From assembly GCA_043814545.1 (NCBI GenBank), contig JBDRJY010000011.1, positions 13,013 through 77,012 of the forward strand: a DNA stretch of 64,000 bases, written 5' to 3'. Below the pieces are notes generated by a model, which saw only the letters and a list, made by a program, of their open reading frames with translations, was not told the DNA's origin and searched no databases. Source of the stretch: an archaeon (lineage in GTDB: Archaea; Nanobdellota; Nanobdellia; SCGC-AAA011-G17; GW2011-AR17). The stretch's first letter is position 1, and each line of letters opens with the position of its first letter. This document shows positions 6,618 through 40,895 of this stretch, piece after piece. The position numbers were made by a program, and so were the translations under genes.

Positions 6618-7034
6618 ATGGGAACCGTTGTATGCAAATGCGGAATTAAAAGAGAGTCTGGATTTTTATATTTTCTAGACAAAAATGGTGACGTAGCTAA
6701 AACAAAAATGGCACGTGCCGGAGACAAAAAAGGTAAACGAAAACAAATTGTTGTTTACAAAGCTGGTATTAAACGTAAAAAAGGATATCTTTACTTCATT
6801 GATAAGCAAGGTAATGTTGCTATGGCACAAATGGCTGTAGGACGAAAGAAATCTAAAAAGAAAGTTACTAAGAAAAAAGTTGTTAAAAAGAAAGTAACTA
6901 AGAAAAAACCAGTTAAGAAAAAAGTTACCAAAAAGAAAGTAGCTAAGAAAAAACCGGTTAAGAAAAAAGTTACCAAAAAGAAAGTAGCTAAGAAAAAACC
7001 AGTTAAGAAAAAAGTTGCTAAAAAGAAAAGGTAA
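6618..7034 (+). CDS. very basic protein: duplicated small domain plus histone H1-like Lys-rich tail
   Basis: Two copies of GIKR..G(F/Y)LYF.DK.G.VA...MA, then KKKV(T/A)/KKKPV repeats; ATG at 6618 follows GAGGTGA. Confidence 0.8.
   Translation: MGTVVCKCGIKRESGFLYFLDKNGDVAKTKMARAGDKKGKRKQIVVYKAGIKRKKGYLYFIDKQGNVAMAQMAVGRKKSKKKVTKKKVVKKKVTKKKPVKKKVTKKKVAKKKPVKKKVTKKKVAKKKPVKKKVAKKKR
6855..7028 (+). repeat. coding tandem repeat (15-bp units within a 45-bp period) encoding the KKKxx tail
   Basis: Repeated aagaaaaaagttacc / aaaaagaaagtagct / aagaaaaaaccagtt. Confidence 0.85.
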
Positions 7035-7037
7035 ACT

Positions 7038-8843
7038 TTATTCACTTATTTTTTTTAATTCTATTTTTTTATTTAATTCTAACGCACAGATTATTTTTTT
7101 ACCAAAATCAGAATGTTTGTTAACCTTAATCTCATTATTTTTTCCTGACATTGATGTAAAAAGATATTCGTCGTCGAGAAACATATCTACAATGTAGCCT
7201 GAACCACCTACTTCAAACACTAAACTGTTTGCACGTTCAGACGCTGTATATTCTAATGTAATACCCTCTTTCCTTGCAGACTCTTGCGGATAAAGTTCAA
7301 TAGAGATTCCCAATTTTCTTTGTAAATGAACAATTGTTTTTCCACCTTCACCAATAGTGTTAGTCATATCTTTTTTTGGAATATAAACGTATGCTTTAAA
7401 ATCACTTTTCATTGTAACTTCTACACTTGATGCATAATTTAAAATTTCTTTTTCAATCATTTTCGCTGCAAGGTTTCTTACAGGATTATCCTTAGTTTCT
7501 TTTTCAATAGGTAGAATAACAGTTTCTTCACCGAAAGTATAAATTTCATAAACAGGATTGTTCGTTAACAAATCTCGAATTTCTACAACAGGTCTTGCAA
7601 GATCAGCTTCAACCATTCCAGAAGGAACTTTTATTTTCATTTTTAATGTAAGAACATCTTTAACTTTACCATTCTCAACAAAAATTACTGTGTCAACAAT
7701 TGAAGGTATCATTCCAACATCTAGTCTGCCTAAAAATCTTTGCACAGCATCAATTGCAGATGCACTGTGTACAACACCTATCACTGCTGAACCACCTAAC
7801 CTTAAATCAATGAAAAGTTTAAAATCAGGAGTATCACGAATTTCGTCAAACACTAAATTGTCTGGCCTAGACAAAAATAATAAATCATGAATCTCTTCAC
7901 TGTCAGCAAAGTTTTTTGAATACTGCGTAACTTCATTAGGAAGAATTAAGTCACGGGGACTTTCAATAGTTTTTGTTATTCTTCCTTCTTTAAGATAAAG
8001 CTTTGCCACTGCCTGAACCAAAGTAGATTTACCACTTCCAGTTTCACCTGCAATAACCAACCCTGCAGCTTTTTCAACCATCCTGTTAACAATTTCTTTT
8101 GGAAGATCATAATCTTCAAGGTGTAAAACCCTAATAGGCCGCACTATAGTTATTTCCCATCCGTCAGATACAGGAGGTTTTACAATAACTATCCTATAAT
8201 GTTGGTACTGAATAATTGTTGAACTTTTACGCGAAATTTCTACAACTGCTTTCGAATCTATCCTTGCTTTCTCAACAATCTCCTTAGCAATACGTTGAAC
8301 ATCTACCAAGCCTAATTTTTCAGTATCAACTATCTCTAAGTTCCAGTTACCGGGAGCTCCACGTTTAGCTAGAGGAACACAATCTTCTTTCAAATGTAAA
8401 CTCATAGTGTTCTCGTCAAAGAATTGTTCAAATTCTAATTTCATTAAATCAGATTTTAATCGTATGAAAATAACATTAACTCCTATAGCCTTAGCTGTTT
8501 GTGCCTGGATAACATTAGCTGTGATTAAGCTCGCACTTTCATCATAAGCAATATCTTTAACCAAAGAATCAACATATAATCCACTATCATCGTTCTTTAA
8601 CTGGAAAACTGTAGGTTTTACGCCGACAAGTTTTATTGTGATATAACCTTGAGTTGCCAGGTTTTGTAGTTCTTCCAACTCTTCCAATCCTAATAAACCT
8701 ATTTCACGTCCTAAATTAGCTTCATATTCCAGCCTAGCAACTACTGCACGAGGTAAAAGAATATCTCCTTTAATTTTTTCACCATTAATCATCTTAGAAA
8801 CAGCTTTTTCTATAACAACCGAAGTATCTATAATATAAACCAT
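7038..8843 (-). CDS. PIN-domain ATPase with KH domain (PINA / MJ1533 family)
   Basis: N-terminal IIDTSVVI PIN, Walker A GETGSGKST, RPD...DEIR, C-terminal IGEGGKTI KH motif. Confidence 0.9.
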   Translation of the reverse strand: MVYIIDTSVVIEKAVSKMINGEKIKGDILLPRAVVARLEYEANLGREIGLLGLEELEELQNLATQGYITIKLVGVKPTVFQLKNDDSGLYVDSLVKDIAYDESASLITANVIQAQTAKAIGVNVIFIRLKSDLMKLEFEQFFDENTMSLHLKEDCVPLAKRGAPGNWNLEIVDTEKLGLVDVQRIAKEIVEKARIDSKAVVEISRKSSTIIQYQHYRIVIVKPPVSDGWEITIVRPIRVLHLEDYDLPKEIVNRMVEKAAGLVIAGETGSGKSTLVQAVAKLYLKEGRITKTIESPRDLILPNEVTQYSKNFADSEEIHDLLFLSRPDNLVFDEIRDTPDFKLFIDLRLGGSAVIGVVHSASAIDAVQRFLGRLDVGMIPSIVDTVIFVENGKVKDVLTLKMKIKVPSGMVEADLARPVVEIRDLLTNNPVYEIYTFGEETVILPIEKETKDNPVRNLAAKMIEKEILNYASSVEVTMKSDFKAYVYIPKKDMTNTIGEGGKTIVHLQRKLGISIELYPQESARKEGITLEYTASERANSLVFEVGGSGYIVDMFLDDEYLFTSMSGKNNEIKVNKHSDFGKKIICALELNKKIELKKISE

Positions 8844-8906: not shown

Positions 8907-9635
8907 CTAAACCTTTCTAACAAAGGTTAAGAATGCAGTATGGCCTTGCATTTGAGATTTAGGACGAACTTTCCTACCAGAAATGTACCATTCTCTCTCG
9001 AGCAACTCTACTGTACGCAAATGTAAAAAATTTTCTGGTAACGAGTTAACAAACTCTTGCACCTGAGTAATCGACGGTAAGTATGTAACAACCATTGCAC
9101 CATTTTTCAATGCATTAGAAGCCACAGGCAAAACTCGCCACGGTTCCGGCAAGTCTAAGGTTAAAACGTCAACATCTATCTCATCAAGACCATCATAAAT
9201 ATCTTTTTCTTTAACCATAACATTGTCAACATTAAGAAACTCTAAATTTTTTTTAGCTATTTTAGCATGAGAAGAATTCATTTCATAACTAATAACTTTC
9301 TTAGACACTCTGCCTAAACAAGCAGCTAACAAACCGCAACCCGCACCTGCGTCAACAACGAATGAATCTTGGTTAACACCTGAGTACATTAAAATTAAAC
9401 CTATATCTTTTAAAAGTAAAGTTTGAGGACCACGCTTAATTTTATCTATCTGGTCGACGAAGGAAGGGCTAAAACAAAAAAACTCTTTACCAGACCCAGA
9501 TTTAACTACACCTTGACCAGACTCTAACTCACTCTCTTTAATTGTACCAAAGTTAGTATGCAAATCACCTTCGTCCCAGTAAAATTTGTATTTGTTAAAC
9601 ATAGGGTTAGTACGCATTAAAATTTTCTTAACCAT
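8907..9635 (-). CDS. trmI: tRNA (adenine57/58-N1)-methyltransferase
   Basis: KRGPQ, DAGAGCG, LDLPEPW and GHTAFL motifs. Confidence 0.9.
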   Translation of the reverse strand: MVKKILMRTNPMFNKYKFYWDEGDLHTNFGTIKESELESGQGVVKSGSGKEFFCFSPSFVDQIDKIKRGPQTLLLKDIGLILMYSGVNQDSFVVDAGAGCGLLAACLGRVSKKVISYEMNSSHAKIAKKNLEFLNVDNVMVKEKDIYDGLDEIDVDVLTLDLPEPWRVLPVASNALKNGAMVVTYLPSITQVQEFVNSLPENFLHLRTVELLEREWYISGRKVRPKSQMQGHTAFLTFVRKV

Positions 9636-9763
9636 AATGAAAAACGAAATTCTATGGCTTTAAAAGGTTTGTTCTCTATATATTTCTACACGAAAGGTTT
9701 AAATATTAAAAAACAGGATATAATCTTTATATTTATCTTAGAAAAAAAGGAGGTTGATTTTAT

Positions 9764-19833: not shown

Positions 19834-20721
19834 ATGAAAGTTAAAAGAGGTTTACAACTTTTGTTAATGGGTTTTGCTTTAACTATTTCTGGTAATGCTC
19901 AAGAACAACCAATAGAAAAACCTGTAACAGCAACTAAAACTAAAGAGGATTTTAGAAATAAGTATAGATTTGAAGGTTATGAACCTACTACATTCTCAAC
20001 TGAGAAACAAGATTATGGTAATTGGAAAAATCTTGTAATAACACATCCTGAATCTGAACCTTACCTAGATTATATTGAACAGTCATGTAACAAATACCAA
20101 GACATTTATCCTGTCGATCCTATCTTAATTCTTAACCTTCTTGAACAAGAATCACATTTTGACCCTAACGCTGTATCTTACATGGGTGCTGCTGGTATTG
20201 CACAGTTTATGCCGTCCACTGCAAAATATGAATATGGTTTGAAAATTTATGAGCCTAAGTATTATAACGAATGGTTGAAAGCTTTCAGGATGAAACGTAA
20301 GTACAAAAATCTTGCCCAAAGTAGTTTAATGTTTGACGGTCCTAACGAAGAAGATATGAAAATTGATGATTGGGTTAACTATGTGCAAACGTATAAACAC
20401 GGACAGTACGTTGAACTTTATAACAAATATTCTGATCAAGAACGTGAGTTAAGAGATTTGTACAAAAATGATCTTTTAGAACATAAAGATGAAGATGAAA
20501 GATTCAACCCAGAAATTGAAATTGATGTTTGTGTATATTACATTGCCAAGTCAATGAAAACTCGAGATGGTGACATACGTGAAGCTTTATCGTCATACAA
20601 CGCTGGGATGCATAATGTTAAGATTTATGATGGTATTCCACCTTACAAAGAAACAGTTCTTTACCAAAATAGAATTTATAACGGATACAAAAGCGATAAA
20701 AAATTTTTAGAAAGAAAATAG
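19834..20721 (+). CDS. secreted lytic transglycosylase (SLT domain)
   Basis: Signal peptide; QESHFDPNAVS, GAAGIAQFMPSTA, ALSSYNAG and IPPYKET..Y motifs. Confidence 0.9.
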   Translation: MKVKRGLQLLLMGFALTISGNAQEQPIEKPVTATKTKEDFRNKYRFEGYEPTTFSTEKQDYGNWKNLVITHPESEPYLDYIEQSCNKYQDIYPVDPILILNLLEQESHFDPNAVSYMGAAGIAQFMPSTAKYEYGLKIYEPKYYNEWLKAFRMKRKYKNLAQSSLMFDGPNEEDMKIDDWVNYVQTYKHGQYVELYNKYSDQERELRDLYKNDLLEHKDEDERFNPEIEIDVCVYYIAKSMKTRDGDIREALSSYNAGMHNVKIYDGIPPYKETVLYQNRIYNGYKSDKKFLERK

Positions 20722-20740
20722 GTTTTTGCCTTCGGCTTAA
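20721..20740 (+). repeat. consensus copy of the dispersed ~20-bp hairpin repeat GGTTTTTGCCTTCGGCTTAA
   Basis: Other copies: 612-630(-), 1603-1622(+), 2201-2220(-), 19773-19792(-), 23250-23268(+), 23665-23683(-), 29874-29893(+), 38395-38414(+), 39554-39573(-). Confidence 0.8.
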
Positions 20741-20763
20741 TACAAAGTTAAAAAATAAAAAAA

Positions 20764-23247: not shown

Positions 23248-23347
23248 TAGGGTTTTGCCTTCGGCTGAGAATTTTGTTAAATCCGAAAATATGTTGTAAA
23301 TTTTTGAATAGCTTTTTTAAATTTATATTAAAATTCAATTATTTATA

Positions 23348-37709: not shown

Positions 37710-37811
37710 GGGTCCCTTGCTCAGTTTGGTTTAGAGCACTGGTCTTATAAGACGCTTTTGGCGATAGTCTAAGTTAGCCAGAGGTCGCGGGTTCGAATCC
37801 CGCGGGACCCA
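37710..37811 (+). tRNA. tRNA-Ile(TAT) with a 26-nt intron at 37/38 (37750-37775)
   Basis: GGGTCCC/GGGACCC acceptor stem, anticodon TAT at 37746-37748, BHB motif (CTTA/TAAG helix, TAA and TTA bulges, GAC/GTC outer helix). Confidence 0.92.
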
Positions 37812-38387: not shown

Positions 38388-38421
38388 AGATTTGGGTCTT
38401 TGCCTTCGGCTGAATACAAAG

Positions 38422-39258
38422 TTATTGTAACTTCTTTCTCTTTTTGTTCTCTAACCTTTTCTTCTTTTCAGGTTCAGTCAAATAATTTTCTTCAGAAACA
38501 ACTTTTTCTCCTGTTTCTATTTCTAAATTTTTTCTTGCATCACCAGCAATCTTCCCGCCCTTTTTCGCTGCATCTTGGTTTTCATTAAAACCTTGAGAAT
38601 CTTTGGATTTTGTAATTTCAGTTGTTGCTTTTTCACCGAGCATCGAAAATATTAACTCTAAATCATCCATATGATCCCGAAGATTTTCTCGTTTTAAACC
38701 TTTAACTTCTTTATATTCACTAGGAGTTAAATCAAAAGTAGCTTTTGAAATTTCTGCAGTAAGTATGGAAAACTCTTTTTGTTCTTTAATCCCTCTTTTT
38801 TCCCATTCATCAGTTAATTCGTCCCTGATTACTATGCCTCTTACGCGTTTTTCAATCCATTCATCAGAGTAACCTTTGACTCTGTAAATTTCTTTCATGC
38901 GTTTTTGCGCTAATTCTGGATTTTCAATCTCTTGTACTCTTTCATAGCCGACTTTAGCTAGCCATAGCTTGAATGGTTCAGCTTTCTTTGAAGGTATTGA
39001 TTGTATAATCCTAAATATGGATTTTGTGTTGGCACAGTCTGTAAACCTGAATTTACCATCTCTAGCTTGCAATTTCAAACCGTGACAAATTGTCACGAGT
39101 TGAGGTTCCCTTTGTTTAAGCTTCCTCCAATATGCTAATTCATCTTGACTATTTGTAAGTACTGCAATAATATCTGAAACAGAAAAATACCATTCGCTAT
39201 TATGCCAAACTCTTCTAATTTTCTTATCTTGAAATACTACTAGCTTATTTTCTTCCAT
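38422..39258 (-). CDS. BRO-N domain DNA-binding protein
   Basis: IRRVW....WYFSV.D, RIIQSIPSKKAEPFKLWLA and ENLRDHM motifs. Confidence 0.88.
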   Translation of the reverse strand: MEENKLVVFQDKKIRRVWHNSEWYFSVSDIIAVLTNSQDELAYWRKLKQREPQLVTICHGLKLQARDGKFRFTDCANTKSIFRIIQSIPSKKAEPFKLWLAKVGYERVQEIENPELAQKRMKEIYRVKGYSDEWIEKRVRGIVIRDELTDEWEKRGIKEQKEFSILTAEISKATFDLTPSEYKEVKGLKRENLRDHMDDLELIFSMLGEKATTEITKSKDSQGFNENQDAAKKGGKIAGDARKNLEIETGEKVVSEENYLTEPEKKKRLENKKRKKLQ

Positions 39259-39405
39259 ATGAAAAAGTAAATGTTAATAAGTTTATAAGCTTCACGCGTG
39301 TTTATCATGTCAAGTGGTTTTGTAAAATATAGTTTAGATAAATTTTGGACTTTCGCTGCGCGTGAATACAAGAAAGTGTCTCAGCCAATTAAGCTTGACT
39401 ATTCC

Positions 39406-39495
39406 AACAAACCGACCGTTATTGTTATTAAGATTGTTGTTGCCGTTCGCGTTGGCGTTGTTATTAAGATTATTGACACACCACAACCGCCCAAC
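39406..39495 (-). other. diversity-generating retroelement template repeat (TR)-like sequence, orphan in this window
   Basis: 30 codons: 14 AAC/AAT and 16 with no adenine (VGRLWCVNNLNNNANANGNNNLNNNNGRFV); hairpins on both sides. Confidence 0.8.
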
Positions 39496-39572
39496 AGTAG
39501 CTATTTCACTTCCTGGAAAGAGTTTAGAAATAGTATCAAAACAAAACAATAGTCTAAGCCGAAGGCAAAAAC

Positions 39573-40895
39573 CTATTTTCCAATATCACTTAACTTCTTA
39601 GAACTAATACGTGGTTTCAAACGTTTCCATAAAAAGTAAAATGTTATTATCAAAACTATCAGTAATATTATTCCAATAATTCTATTACGAGTAACATTCT
39701 CTTCATCTTCACTATCTTCTTCGCCAGTATCTAATTCAGAGTAATTGAAAGGTAATTCTAACGTTGTTTCTTCAGCATCAGTGGATTCAGTTACCTCAAA
39801 ATATAATGTAATTGAATCGGAAGGGCCTTCGTCTGACATCACACTTAAAGTGCCAAAATATAATTCAGCATCAGCATCAAAATTATCATTTACAATTAAG
39901 TCAAATTCACGTAACTCGTTAGAATCTAAAACTCCTATTGTCATCGGTGAAACTGTTAACACTTCTGCCAAATTACCGCCAAAAACAACCTGAACATTAG
40001 TCAAGCTATAATTATATTCGTTGTAAATAGGGACAGTTGCCGTCAACCGTTGTTTTTGTGTCAAAGTTGTTTCCAAAGAATCTTCGTCTATCATCAGTTT
40101 TAGTTCAAATTCAATAGCGGGTATAGATGGTTCTTCCATAGGACATTCTTCTTCAGGAAATTCTAAACAATCCCATTGATTCTCAGAACAAACGCAACGT
40201 TCAACCTCTGTACCGTCGTCACATTCGTACATTAAACTTTCATTTACAACACAGATTATTTCTTCTTCAGGTTCTTCAGGTATAGAAAAGAAAAAAGGGA
40301 CATAATACGTGTTGTTAACCATAGACAAAGTTAAAAACTTTTTTTCAGTTATACCCTCCTCAATATTAACAGTTAATTTACGCAAAGAAGAAGGTTCAAT
40401 TGTTAAACTTGTTCTTACAGGATTTAAACCGTCATCAGATGTGATAAAAATATCCGACGTTTCGTCGCCCCAGTTGAAAACAGTTAAATCTACTTTATCC
40501 AAATCTTCAATAAAAAATCCGCCAGGTTTTAATGTTAAATATTCAATCGTAGTATTATGATAAGTTAAACTAAACTCAATAGATTCGTTTTCCTCCTCGC
40601 CATCTTTCAAACCAGATACAAAAACTGAATATGATCCGGACGCAAGGTGGTTAGGTATATTAAAATATACAAAATAACTTTCTTCAGGCAAAGTTAAAAG
40701 AATTTTTCCAATTTCCACTTCCACGCCCTGCCAATTATACATAATAATATCAGAAACATCTACAGATTCATATTCAGTTATCTCTAACTGGAAAGTTTCG
40801 CCAACATAATAATCAGTCTTATAATGTTCTAAGTCAGCAAAAACCAGTGGAACTAAAAGTAAAATAAAAAATAAAAGGGTAAACAGTTTCATCAA
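39573..40895 (-). CDS. acidic secreted, membrane-anchored surface protein
   Basis: Signal peptide, Ig-like segments, Cys-rich insert, C-terminal TM with basic tail. Confidence 0.75.
   Translation of the reverse strand: MMKLFTLLFFILLLVPLVFADLEHYKTDYYVGETFQLEITEYESVDVSDIIMYNWQGVEVEIGKILLTLPEESYFVYFNIPNHLASGSYSVFVSGLKDGEEENESIEFSLTYHNTTIEYLTLKPGGFFIEDLDKVDLTVFNWGDETSDIFITSDDGLNPVRTSLTIEPSSLRKLTVNIEEGITEKKFLTLSMVNNTYYVPFFFSIPEEPEEEIICVVNESLMYECDDGTEVERCVCSENQWDCLEFPEEECPMEEPSIPAIEFELKLMIDEDSLETTLTQKQRLTATVPIYNEYNYSLTNVQVVFGGNLAEVLTVSPMTIGVLDSNELREFDLIVNDNFDADAELYFGTLSVMSDEGPSDSITLYFEVTESTDAEETTLELPFNYSELDTGEEDSEDEENVTRNRIIGIILLIVLIITFYFLWKRLKPRISSKKLSDIGK

What the first reader, a model, noticed from the sequence alone, without database searches (positions are those of the whole stretch)
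39290..39573. Orphan DGR-type template repeat with structured flanks and no RT, Avd or target in the window
Seen: on the minus strand, 39495 to 39406 reads gtt ggg cgg ttg tgg tgt gtc AAT AAT ctt AAT AAC AAC gcc AAC gcg AAC ggc AAC AAC AAT ctt AAT AAC AAT AAC ggt cgg ttt gtt. Every adenine lies in one of 14 AAY codons and the 16 other codons have none, which is striking in an AT-rich genome. Inverted repeats flank it: ctatttc/gaaatag at 39501-39533, an agtcaa/ttggct hairpin just downstream, and ttcacgcg/cgcgtgaa at 39291/39359. Known: this is the signature of a diversity-generating retroelement template, where A-specific mutagenic reverse transcription diversifies a C-type-lectin-fold target; DGRs occur in DPANN archaea and usually keep TR next to RT. 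Inference: where RT would be expected there is a BRO-N gene, so this is either a trans-acting stand-alone template RNA or the relic of a deleted DGR.
Basis: partly seen in the sequence, partly recalled or inferred. Interest (0 to 1): 0.9.

Follow-up and report, generated by a model that had tools for sequence, protein, structure and literature searches.

The report
Stranded DGR template repeat remnant
This is a real extra copy of the RNA template that a diversity-generating retroelement uses to rewrite proteins, but it sits without a partner gene and without its usual RNA element, 26 kb from the working retroelement of a small groundwater archaeon, so it is most likely a leftover.

Summary
Window 39406-39495 (minus strand) has 14 AAY codons that carry all 28 adenines. 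Only one other place in the 1.03-Mb genome looks like this.

That other place is TR1, the template of a complete, active DGR on the same contig. The cassette starts 1.2 kb beyond the window end, about 25.7 kb from the finding. It holds tandem targets, an Rfam RT-16 RNA, TR1 and a 362-aa RT. Four full and two partial VRs match TR1 at every non-A position.

The finding (TR2) is a true TR paralogue. It shares the TR-type 3' boundary (GGAATAG) and the following hairpin with templates in relatives whose VRs differ only at template adenines.

TR2 has no VR in the assembly or in the public collections scanned. It keeps only about the last 25-30 nt of the ~145-nt RT-16 element, which precedes 21-22 of the 24 TR-like sequences examined. 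The homologous island is only ~150 nt, between a conserved surface-protein gene and a virus-like BRO-N gene.

Best reading (0.65): a stranded remnant of a second DGR module. Rival (0.15): a minimal template still used in trans.

Verdict: ordinary DGR turnover, moderate interest.

The parts
39406..39495 (-). TR2: template-repeat-like core, 30 codons with 14 AAY codons holding all 28 A
   Evidence: sequence; one of only two such loci in the genome; homology to TR1 and to templates of relatives.
39399..39405 (-). GGAATAG, the TR-type 3' boundary. In relatives the matching VRs read GGGGTAG here.
   Evidence: 3 of 3 computed TR/VR pairs (L004, L006, L007) show GGAATAG in the TR and GGGGTAG in the VR; invariant in alignment A2.
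39376..39400 (-). Conserved 3' hairpin block: AGTCAA, a 6-nt loop, TTGGCT, then GAGACAC
   Evidence: (A2): conserved in G021:C102, G002:C51 and G015:C106. G036:C34 keeps the stem with changed pairs. The stem is broken in the G021:C90 relic.
39496..39522 (-). Remnant of the 3' end of the Rfam RT-16 element: the 3' strand of its closing helix plus the GCUAC tail
   Evidence: (A3): only this part aligns with the RT-16 elements of 5 other templates; consensus structure; no RT-16 match here, even at E<=10.
39527..39533 (-). CTATTTC, complementary to GAAATAG at 39501-39507. Either the retained 5' strand of the RT-16 closing helix or a chance match.
   Evidence: 3.2% of random 60-nt genome windows hold such a 7-nt complement.
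39558..39566 (-). GCCTTCGGC hairpin just after the stop of the upstream gene. It is a recurrent post-gene motif in this window.
   Evidence: repeat families D13, I8, I14 and I16.
39573..40895 (-). Upstream 440-aa secreted, membrane-anchored protein. It has no VR. It is conserved and syntenic with the 643-aa gene in relatives.
   Evidence: a match in 25 of 37 family genomes, and the gene pair is kept in 7 of 7 loci examined.
38422..39258 (-). Downstream BRO-N gene (278 aa), virus-like
   Evidence: Pfam Bro-N, E 4.1e-10; phrog_15286, E 1e-91.
39291..39366 (-). 8-bp inverted repeat TTCACGCG / CGCGTGAA, between the TR2 island and the BRO-N start. It lies outside the region homologous to other templates.
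   Evidence: similarity to other templates ends near 39375.

Best explanation
TR2 is a genuine paralogue of a DGR template repeat that has been stranded. It is a ~150-nt island (about 39375-39522) left from a second DGR module. That module was of the type 'target gene with VR, then RT-16 RNA, then TR, then hairpin', which is intact in relatives.

In this genome the island has lost the target gene and the core of the RT-16 element (inferred: by deletion or rearrangement). It has no cognate VR. It now lies between a conserved surface-protein gene and a virus-like BRO-N gene.

The genome's one reverse transcriptase, 25.7 kb away, works with its own RT-16 and TR1 and rewrites at least six VRs. TR2 most likely contributes nothing to that.

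Shown: homology to working templates, absence of a VR, absence of RT-16, and activity of TR1. Inferred: that RT-16 is needed for template use, and that the loss came by deletion.
For: 1. No partner VR in the genome.
- An A-masked scan of all 25 contigs found only TR2 itself at >=55% of non-A positions. Half- and sub-segment scans (>=75-85%) also found only itself.
- The same method finds, for TR1, four VRs identical at 59 of 59 non-A positions with 10-14 of 27 A changed, plus two partial VRs.

2. No partner VR in public collections.
- The exact A-free 21-mer gave 0 hits in metagenome contigs, genome contigs and viral contigs.
- Two A-masked patterns gave 0 hits: the 5'-half pattern in viral contigs and the 3'-half pattern in metagenome contigs.

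3. The RT-16 element is missing.
- Rfam RT-16 (RF03019) lies directly 5' of the template in 21 of 24 TR-like sequences examined at or above the gathering score, and more weakly (34 bits) in 1.
- It is absent in 2: TR2, and G021:C90, a broken relic with a truncated target, an in-frame TAG and a broken hairpin.
- All four TR/VR pairs with verified A-only differences have RT-16.
- The whole genome has one RT-16 copy, at TR1.
- TR2 aligns only with the last ~25-30 nt of the element.

4. TR2's class differs from the resident RT's own template.
- Its 3' boundary and hairpin match templates that stand beside, or apart from, long-form RTs.
- The genome has one short-form RT and no match to the long-form C-terminal domain.

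5. DGR parts are evidently being lost in this lineage.
- There is an orphan VR with no template in the assembly (C15).
- There is a non-diversified paralogue of the target family on C14, with 30 non-A mismatches to TR2.

6. The junction of TR2 with the upstream gene is real. A contig of run X1 spans 39427-39738 with 0 differences.
Against: - TR2 is compositionally pristine, with no A outside AAY codons in 90 nt. Its GGAATAG boundary and 3' hairpin are intact, unlike the G021:C90 relic.
- A 7-bp helix that mimics the RT-16 closing helix is kept. It has two changed pairs relative to G021:C102, and the chance of such a match is about 3%.
- An active DGR RT is in the same genome.
- Relatives hold target/RT-16/TR modules with A-only VRs but no RT on the contig or within 1.5 kb: G021:C102, G002:C51, G064:C17 and G130:C27. 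So action in trans is plausible in this group.
- The assembly has no contig under 2041 nt, so a short VR-bearing contig could have been dropped.
- The collection scans may leave out records of this genome or of near relatives.
- That RT-16 is required for template use is an inference from co-occurrence, not a test.
Confidence: 0.65

Rival explanations
1. TR2 is a working minimal template. It would be transcribed on its own or by read-through, recognised by the single RT encoded 25.7 kb away through its retained closing helix and 3' hairpin, and copied into a target that is not in the assembly (an unassembled gene, an episome or a virus).
For: - TR2 has pristine AAY composition and an intact TR-type boundary and hairpin.
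- It keeps a 7-bp mini-helix with about 3% chance expectation.
- An active RT lies on the same contig.
- RT-less modules with A-only VRs exist in relatives.
- No contig of the assembly is shorter than 2041 nt.
- One X1 contig carries an in-frame 3-nt deletion of the last AAC codon (depth 2 of 4, weak).
Against: - No VR was found at any threshold in a 98.7%-complete assembly or in three public collections.
- The RT-16 core, present at every template with a verified VR, is missing.
- No other RT-16-less template with a VR was seen among the 24 TR-like sequences.
- The resident RT's own template has a different 3' boundary.
- TR2 sits directly after a terminator-like hairpin, and no AT-rich promoter-like stretch like the one upstream of TR1's RT-16 is visible (read by eye, not tested).
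Confidence: 0.15
2. The segment is part of a translated small gene: the 71-aa ORF at 39334-39549 (minus strand) that encodes an Asn-rich peptide.
For: An ORF with a TTG start spans the segment. Differences from the G021:C102 template are largely AAT/AAC and other third-position changes.
Against: - No Pfam family matches.
- The same open frame and synonymous pattern are expected of any template, because it must encode the target's C-terminus.
- In relatives the homologous stretch is a template with an A-only VR partner and a preceding non-coding RT-16 RNA.
- The ORF's N-terminus overlaps the RT-16 remnant.
Confidence: 0.03
3. The island has been taken over for another RNA role. Examples are part of the 5' leader or regulation of the BRO-N gene, or an antisense partner of TR1 or VR transcripts.
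For: It is on the same strand as, and 140 nt upstream of, the BRO-N start. The local hairpins are intact.
Against: - There is no excess folding stability (z = 0.05).
- No Rfam match.
- No such arrangement was seen in relatives: downstream genes differ at every homologous template.
- The TATA-like box of BRO-N lies downstream of the island (by eye).
Confidence: 0.05
4. Assembly or binning artefact: a template fragment from another strain or organism was joined into this contig.
For: DGR repeats break and confuse assemblies. Here five contig ends fall in TR1-type target genes.
Against: A contig from run X1 covers 39427-39738, across the junction with the upstream gene, with 0 differences, although X1 may be the source sample. 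TR2 lies 28 kb from the nearest contig end, and no second copy exists that could have caused a mis-join.
Confidence: 0.03

Closest known systems
The genome's own canonical DGR cassette (contig C11 about 77.7-80.6 kb; TR1 with a 362-aa RT)
   Same: The template core has the same layout (N N L N N N S/A N A N G N N N L N N N ...). Identity to TR2 is 74% over 89 nt. Both share a GUGAAA..GCUAC motif just upstream of the template.
   Different: TR1 has a full RT-16 element (65.8 bits), an adjacent RT and six VRs with only A-position changes. TR2 has none of these. The 3' boundaries also differ: CCAATAAC in TR1 and GGAATAG in TR2.
Target/RT-16/TR/hairpin modules without an adjacent co-directional RT in related archaea (G021:C102, G002:C51, G064:C17, G130:C27; G015:C106 has a convergent 566-aa RT)
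   Same: TR2 is 79% identical to the G021:C102 template. It shares the GGAATAG boundary and the AGTCAAGC...GGCUGAGACAC hairpin block almost letter for letter.
   Different: Those modules keep the target gene with a VR (0 non-A mismatches; 9-17 A changed in the three pairs computed) and a full RT-16 (66-84 bits). TR2 has neither.
G021:C90 relic (locus L030)
   Same: It is a TR-like sequence with the same 3' block and no RT-16, and it stands alone next to unrelated genes.
   Different: In that relic a truncated target gene runs straight into the TR-like sequence, which looks like a VR-TR deletion. It carries an in-frame TAG and a broken hairpin. TR2 keeps the RT-16 3' end, has no stop codon and has an intact hairpin.
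Rfam RF03019, the RT-16 RNA (Weinberg et al. 2017, PMC5737381; I read passages of the section on RT motifs)
   Same: TR2's 5' flank is homologous to the last ~25-30 nt of this element.
   Different: There is no match to the family at E<=10. The paper only says that RT motifs lie near RT genes and that some may serve DGRs. Its supplementary description of RT-16 could not be read because supplements are closed.
Leftover DGR parts after loss of the core, as described for Treponema denticola target genes (PMC4891356; passages read)
   Same: DGR components outlive the loss of their partners.
   Different: There the survivors are target genes with VRs. Here the survivor is a template. This genome also has an orphan VR, on C15.

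Membership tests
Functional DGR template repeat | Adenines concentrated in AAY codons of an open frame | tested here: met
   14 AAY codons hold 28 of 28 A in 90 nt. TR2 is one of two such loci in the genome.
Functional DGR template repeat | A cognate VR at the 3' end of a gene that differs from the template (almost) only at template adenines | tested here: not met
   No partner in the 25 contigs. 0 hits in three public collections. The nearest candidate by protein pattern, on C14, has 30 non-A mismatches. Caveat: short contigs and near-identical records may be missing.
Functional DGR template repeat | A DGR-type reverse transcriptase available, usually adjacent | tested here: inconclusive
   There is one RT in the genome (PF00078, E 5.7e-26; best PDB match 8ub7_A at E 8.4e-45). 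It lies 25.7 kb away with its own template. It is not adjacent and is of a different class from the RTs seen beside TR2's closest relatives.
Functional DGR template repeat (this archaeal group) | An RT-16 RNA element immediately 5' of the template | tested here: not met
   No RF03019 match at E<=10. Only the last ~25-30 nt align. 21 of 24 TR-like sequences have the element above the gathering score.
Functional DGR template repeat (this archaeal group) | TR-type 3' boundary (GGAATAG, against GGGGTAG in VRs) and the following hairpin | tested here: met
Functional DGR template repeat | Transcription of the template and its cDNA | not testable with these tools
   No RNA holder of the stretch was listed, and only contigs were available.
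Rfam RT-16 (RF03019) | A match to the covariance model at or above 50 bits | tested here: not met
DGR (the cassette beyond the window end) | RT plus TR plus VRs with adenine-only differences | tested here: met
   59 of 59 non-A positions are identical in 4 full VRs, with 10-14 of 27 A changed. The RT lies next to TR1.

The most novel reading that the evidence does not exclude
TR2 is a stripped-down, stand-alone DGR template. It would keep just the closing helix of RT-16, the template and the 3' hairpin. The lone RT 26 kb away would still copy it in trans, aiming at a target outside the assembled chromosome (an episome, a virus or an unassembled hypervariable gene). That would show that the conserved ~75-nt core of RT-16 is dispensable. 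It would also show that one archaeal RT can serve two unlinked templates of different classes.
Probability: 0.12. Interest if true: 0.6.

Novelty: new member of a known kind. Interest (0 to 1): 0.3.

Why it matters
The finding itself is mostly a clean example of DGR turnover in a reduced archaeal genome. One active cassette with at least six targets sits in the same genome as an orphan template, an orphan VR and a non-diversified paralogue of a target family.

It is a warning for DGR annotation in two ways. Template-like AAY runs can outlive their system. And a window edge can hide the RT.

The by-products may be more useful than the finding:
- In this order the Rfam RT-16 RNA sits immediately 5' of the template in nearly every case.
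- VR and TR differ in a fixed way at the 3' boundary (GGGGTAG against GGAATAG).
- Several relatives keep target/RT-16/TR modules apart from any RT.

TR2 is a natural RT-16-core deletion. It could serve as a ready-made negative (or surprising positive) control in a reconstituted system.

Tried and rejected
- Repeat search inside the window: no partner for TR2.
- Exact and A-masked pattern scans of metagenome contigs, genome contigs and viral contigs: 0 hits each. Records of this genome or of near relatives may be left out, so this is weak evidence.
- A 17-base motif of the TR2 3' boundary in viral contigs gave 3 hits. All 3 lie inside unrelated coding regions with no AAY run or RT-16-like flank, so I rejected them as chance.
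- Sequencing runs: 4 groundwater DNA runs hold 22-31% of the sampled words, and no RNA holder was listed.
- Laying their contigs on the stretch gave only thin cover of 39.3-39.7 kb (depth 0-4). One identical 312-nt contig crossed the TR2/upstream-gene junction, and one low-depth 3-nt deletion was seen. No A-position variation could be assessed. The parts without cover say nothing.
- Whole-region folding: z = 0.05, so no support for an unusually stable structure.
- ARAGORN found no tRNA in 30-50 kb. Rfam found an intron-bearing one.
- Synteny: the 643-aa/440-aa gene pair is conserved in 7 of 7 loci examined. What follows it differs each time and never includes a template, so the ancestral state of the TR2 site could not be reconstructed.
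- Orphan VR3 on C15 as TR2's former partner: rejected by eye, because they differ in length and at many non-A positions.
- The C14 paralogue as partner: rejected, with 30 non-A mismatches.
- The G036:C34 template (closest to TR2's 5' half) has no VR in its 71%-complete genome.
- A resemblance between the tail of the plus-strand ORF 39298-39552 and the C-terminus of long-form RTs (BLASTP E 2e-4 and 0.036 for single comparisons) partly overlaps the RT-16 remnant. I kept it only as a side note.
- NCBIfam gave only sub-threshold RT families.
- Literature: no paper in the library holds both 'RT-16' and 'diversity-generating retroelement' (0 papers). The search for 'orphan TR', 'multiple TRs' and similar terms gave only the T. 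denticola paper as relevant. Supplementary tables of PMC5758913 and PMC5737381, which may list extra templates or describe RT-16, are closed and were not seen. Paul et al. 2017 on DPANN/CPR DGRs was not read; it is recalled only.
- Structure prediction, complex prediction, the protein-atlas tool and the large protein searches were not used.
Full report
**Observation.** It has 30 codons. Fourteen are AAT or AAC, and together they hold all 28 adenines. The three inverted repeats are at the stated places.

The window is G000:C11:13013-77012. The genome has 25 contigs, 1,029,313 bases, 32.5% G+C and 34% A, and is rated 98.7% complete. I scanned all 90-nt frames of both strands. Twenty loci have >=10 in-frame AAY codons, but only two have >=13 AAY codons with <=6 other A. 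One is this locus. The other is at C11 about 79.3 kb. So the pattern is not a by-product of AT-richness.

**What lies just outside the window.** A Pfam RVT_1 search of the whole genome gives one match, at C11:78445-79065 on the minus strand (E 5.7e-26).
- It belongs to a 362-aa ORF at C11:78196-79281. That would be window coordinates 65184-66269, which is 1.2 kb past the window end and about 25.7 kb from the finding.
- Its best solved relative is 8ub7_A, 'Reverse transcriptase' (E 8.4e-45). Group II intron and retron RTs score lower. That 8ub7 is the Bordetella phage DGR enzyme is my recollection, not a tool result.
- NCBIfam gives only sub-threshold RT families. PHROGs gives phrog_1423, 'Reverse transcriptase' (E 2e-112).

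Reading the minus strand upstream of the RT shows a canonical cassette:
- a target gene cut by the contig end, with VR1;
- a second 283-aa target with VR2;
- a ~200-nt spacer;
- an 86-nt template (TR1);
- then the RT start within about 30 nt.

An A-masked scan with TR1 finds four full-length VRs (C9 twice, C11, C19). Each is identical to TR1 at 59 of 59 non-A positions and changed at 10-14 of 27 A positions. Two partial VRs were also found. VR2 carries a 1-nt insertion that brings in a stop codon, and a second C19 copy is cut by the contig end. This DGR is therefore active, or was so very recently. TR1-type target genes sit at five contig ends or on short contigs, which is the usual effect of DGR repeats on assembly.

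**TR2 is a true template paralogue.**
- It aligns with TR1 at 74% identity.
- Both share a GUGAAA..GCUAC motif just 5' of the template that the VRs lack.
- A DNA search of 61 related genomes, and then of 240 genomes of the order, found homologous template-like sequences in 15 of the 240 at E<=1e-6.
- The best is G021:C102, at 79% identity over 155 nt.
- In G021:C102, G002:C51 and G015:C106 the layout is: target 3' end with VR, a spacer of about 190-330 nt, TR, then a conserved block reading GGAATAG, AGUCAAGC, a loop and GGCUGAGACAC.
- The TR/VR pairs computed there have 0 non-A mismatches, with 17 of 30, 9 of 27 and 14 of 26 A changed.
- G064:C17 is similar but its VR has a 3-nt indel.
- In all three computed pairs the VR reads GGGGTAG where the TR reads GGAATAG. 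TR2 has the TR form, and its following hairpin block is nearly identical to that of G021:C102.

**What TR2 lacks: a VR.**
- A-masked scans of all contigs find only TR2 itself. This holds at >=55% of non-A positions for the 90-mer, >=75% for halves and >=85% for 18-40-nt sub-segments. The single exception is the shortest 18-nt piece, which gave only 12-of-14 chance matches.
- The A-free 21-mer and two A-masked patterns give 0 hits in the metagenome, genome and viral collections.

**What TR2 lacks: the RNA element that precedes the template.**
- The conserved ~145-nt spacer element is Rfam RF03019 (RT-16). It scores 83.5 bits in G021:C102, 74.7 in G002:C51 and 65.8 at TR1, against a gathering score of 50.
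- The genome has one copy, at TR1.
- In the family, 16 of 37 genomes have RT-16 and 18 of 37 have the RT. The element nearly always lies 100-250 nt upstream of an RT on the same strand.
- I examined 24 distinct TR-like sequences. They were chosen by similarity to TR2 or by lying beside an RT homologue, so they are not a random sample. Of these, 21 have RT-16 at or above the gathering score directly 5' of the template, and one has a weak match of 34 bits (G002:C31). Two have none.
- One of the two is TR2, with no match even at E<=10 in a 451-nt search. The other is G021:C90. There a truncated target ORF runs straight into TR-like sequence that carries an in-frame TAG and a broken hairpin, next to a tRNA gene. 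That is an evident relic.
- Alignment A3 shows that TR2 keeps only the last ~25-30 nt of the element: the 3' strand of the closing helix and the GCUAC tail.
- A 7-nt complement (CTATTTC) 19 nt upstream could be the retained 5' strand. However, 3.2% of random 60-nt genome windows hold such a complement.

**Context.**
- The TR2-homologous island is only about 150 nt (about 39375-39522).
- Upstream, after a GCCTTCGGC hairpin that recurs behind genes in this window, lies a 440-aa secreted, membrane-anchored protein. Its pairing with the 643-aa gene is conserved in relatives: 25 of 37 genomes have a match, and the pair is kept in 7 of 7 loci examined. What follows the pair differs in every relative and is never a template.
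- Downstream is a BRO-N gene (Pfam E 4.1e-10; phrog_15286 E 1e-91). Diverged homologues of it are abundant in four groundwater runs.
- A contig of run X1 covers 39427-39738 without a difference, so the junction is not an assembly artefact of this genome alone. X1 may, however, be the source sample.

**Class of the lost module.**
- The GGAATAG-plus-hairpin class of template stands next to long-form RTs in several genomes of the order. These RTs have open frames of about 500-566 aa and are co-directional in L077, L078 and L083-L085 (those RT frames are cut by the locus end).
- In G015:C106 the long RT is convergent.
- In G021 a long RT stands alone on C127, while the target/RT-16/TR module is on C102.
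- G002 and G064 gave no match to the long-form C-terminal domain with this query.
- G000 has only the short-form RT. tblastn with two long RTs matched residues 14-353 only.
- So TR2's nearest relatives work with an enzyme class, or in an arrangement, that this genome no longer shows.

**Other stranded parts in the same genome.**
- C15 carries a 251-aa gene with a clear VR-type C-terminus and a GGGTAG-type boundary. No template for it exists in the assembly.
- C14 carries a 230-aa full-length paralogue of the target family that goes with TR2-like templates (34% identity to the L077 target, E 6e-33). Its VR-equivalent stretch is AT-rich and has 30 non-A mismatches to TR2.

**Conclusion.** The evidence fits a second DGR module that has decayed in this lineage, leaving TR2 as a stranded template (confidence 0.65).

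The main rival is that TR2 is still copied in trans by the RT 25.7 kb away, onto a target missing from the assembly (0.15). In its favour:
- TR2's pristine composition and intact 3' elements;
- the possible mini-helix;
- the existence of RT-less modules with A-only VRs in relatives;
- the absence of contigs shorter than 2 kb from the assembly.

That RT-16 is needed for template use is inferred from co-occurrence only.

**Literature.**
- Passages read in Weinberg et al. 2017 (PMC5737381) say that the RT-1 to RT-19 motifs lie near RT genes. They place RT-10 between TR and RT in phage BPP-1 and speculate that others serve DGRs.
- Passages read in Wu et al. 2018 (PMC5758913) describe remote targets, and TR and RT on different strands.
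- Passages read in Nimkulrat et al. 2016 (PMC4891356) describe leftover target genes after loss of the core.
- A term search of Roux et al. 2021 (PMC8144416) returned only a figure legend and the detection-methods passage, neither bearing on orphan templates.
- I found no paper holding both 'RT-16' and the DGR term. Supplements were closed.

**Taxonomy.** The closest RT relatives (51-61% identity) are in MAGs titled Nanoarchaeota, Woesearchaeota, Pacearchaeota or Nanoarchaeia. More distant ones are in Patescibacteria. The runs that hold parts of the stretch are groundwater metagenomes.

Noticed in passing
G000:C11:77700-80605 (L002 7700-10606), which would be window 64688-67593, beyond the window end: A complete active DGR on the minus strand. 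It holds two tandem targets (VR1, VR2), an RT-16 RNA, an 86-nt TR1 and a 362-aa RT. No Avd-like gene was recognised: the 99-aa ORF after the RT has no family match.
   Followed up: yes
G000 contigs C9 (whole), C19 (whole), C12 end, C15 end, C11 end: TR1-type target genes occur in tandem arrays and sit at contig ends or on 3-6 kb contigs. The DGR target arrays are what fragments this assembly. There are at least six VR copies.
   Followed up: partly
L002 about 9610-9700 (C11 about 79.6 kb), VR2 of the 283-aa target: VR2 carries a 1-nt insertion relative to TR1 that shifts the frame into a stop codon. This copy of the target is truncated in its variable region.
   Followed up: partly
G000:C15, L025 4461-5216 (minus strand): A 251-aa gene with a VR-type C-terminus, a GGGTAG-type boundary and a G+C-rich hairpin, directly downstream of a TR1-type target. 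No template for it exists in the assembly: an orphan VR.
   Followed up: yes
G000:C14, L102 2184-2876 (minus strand): A 230-aa full-length paralogue of the DGR target family seen beside TR2-like templates in relatives. Its C-terminus is AT-rich and non-diversified. It is convergent with a Fic-domain gene. A Fic-like gene also lies beside the G036:C34 template (38% identity).
   Followed up: partly
Loci L004, L006, L007, L081, L082 and TR1 (L001 2429-2574): In this archaeal order Rfam RT-16 sits immediately 5' of the DGR template. VRs read GGGGTAG where templates read GGAATAG. Several modules (target, RT-16, TR, hairpin) have no RT on the contig or within 1.5 kb. In G021 a long-form RT stands alone on another contig.
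   Followed up: partly
window 39298-39552 (plus strand): The tail of this 84-aa ORF (antisense to TR2 and its 5' flank) resembles the extreme C-terminus of the 566-aa RT of G015:C106 (BLASTP E 2e-4 for a single comparison). It could be a trace of a convergent long-form RT, or a by-product of the RT-16 remnant.
   Followed up: partly
window 39418-39420: One low-depth contig of run X1 (depth 2 of 4) lacks exactly the last AAC codon of TR2.
   Followed up: no
window 37710-37811 (plus strand): An intron-bearing tRNA gene, found by Rfam (55.7 bits) but missed by ARAGORN.
   Followed up: partly
window 20721-20750, 23250-23279, 38395-38424, 39545-39576: A recurrent GGTTTTTGCCTTCGGCT-type hairpin motif directly after stop codons, on either strand. 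It is probably a shared terminator-like element.
   Followed up: no
window 38422-39258 (minus strand): The BRO-N gene matches phage family phrog_15286 over its full length. Many diverged copies at high depth occur in all four groundwater runs laid, so it is probably a mobile or viral gene.
   Followed up: partly
window 6823-7043: A 15-nt tandem repeat that encodes a Lys-rich (KKVTKKK-like) protein tail.
   Followed up: no
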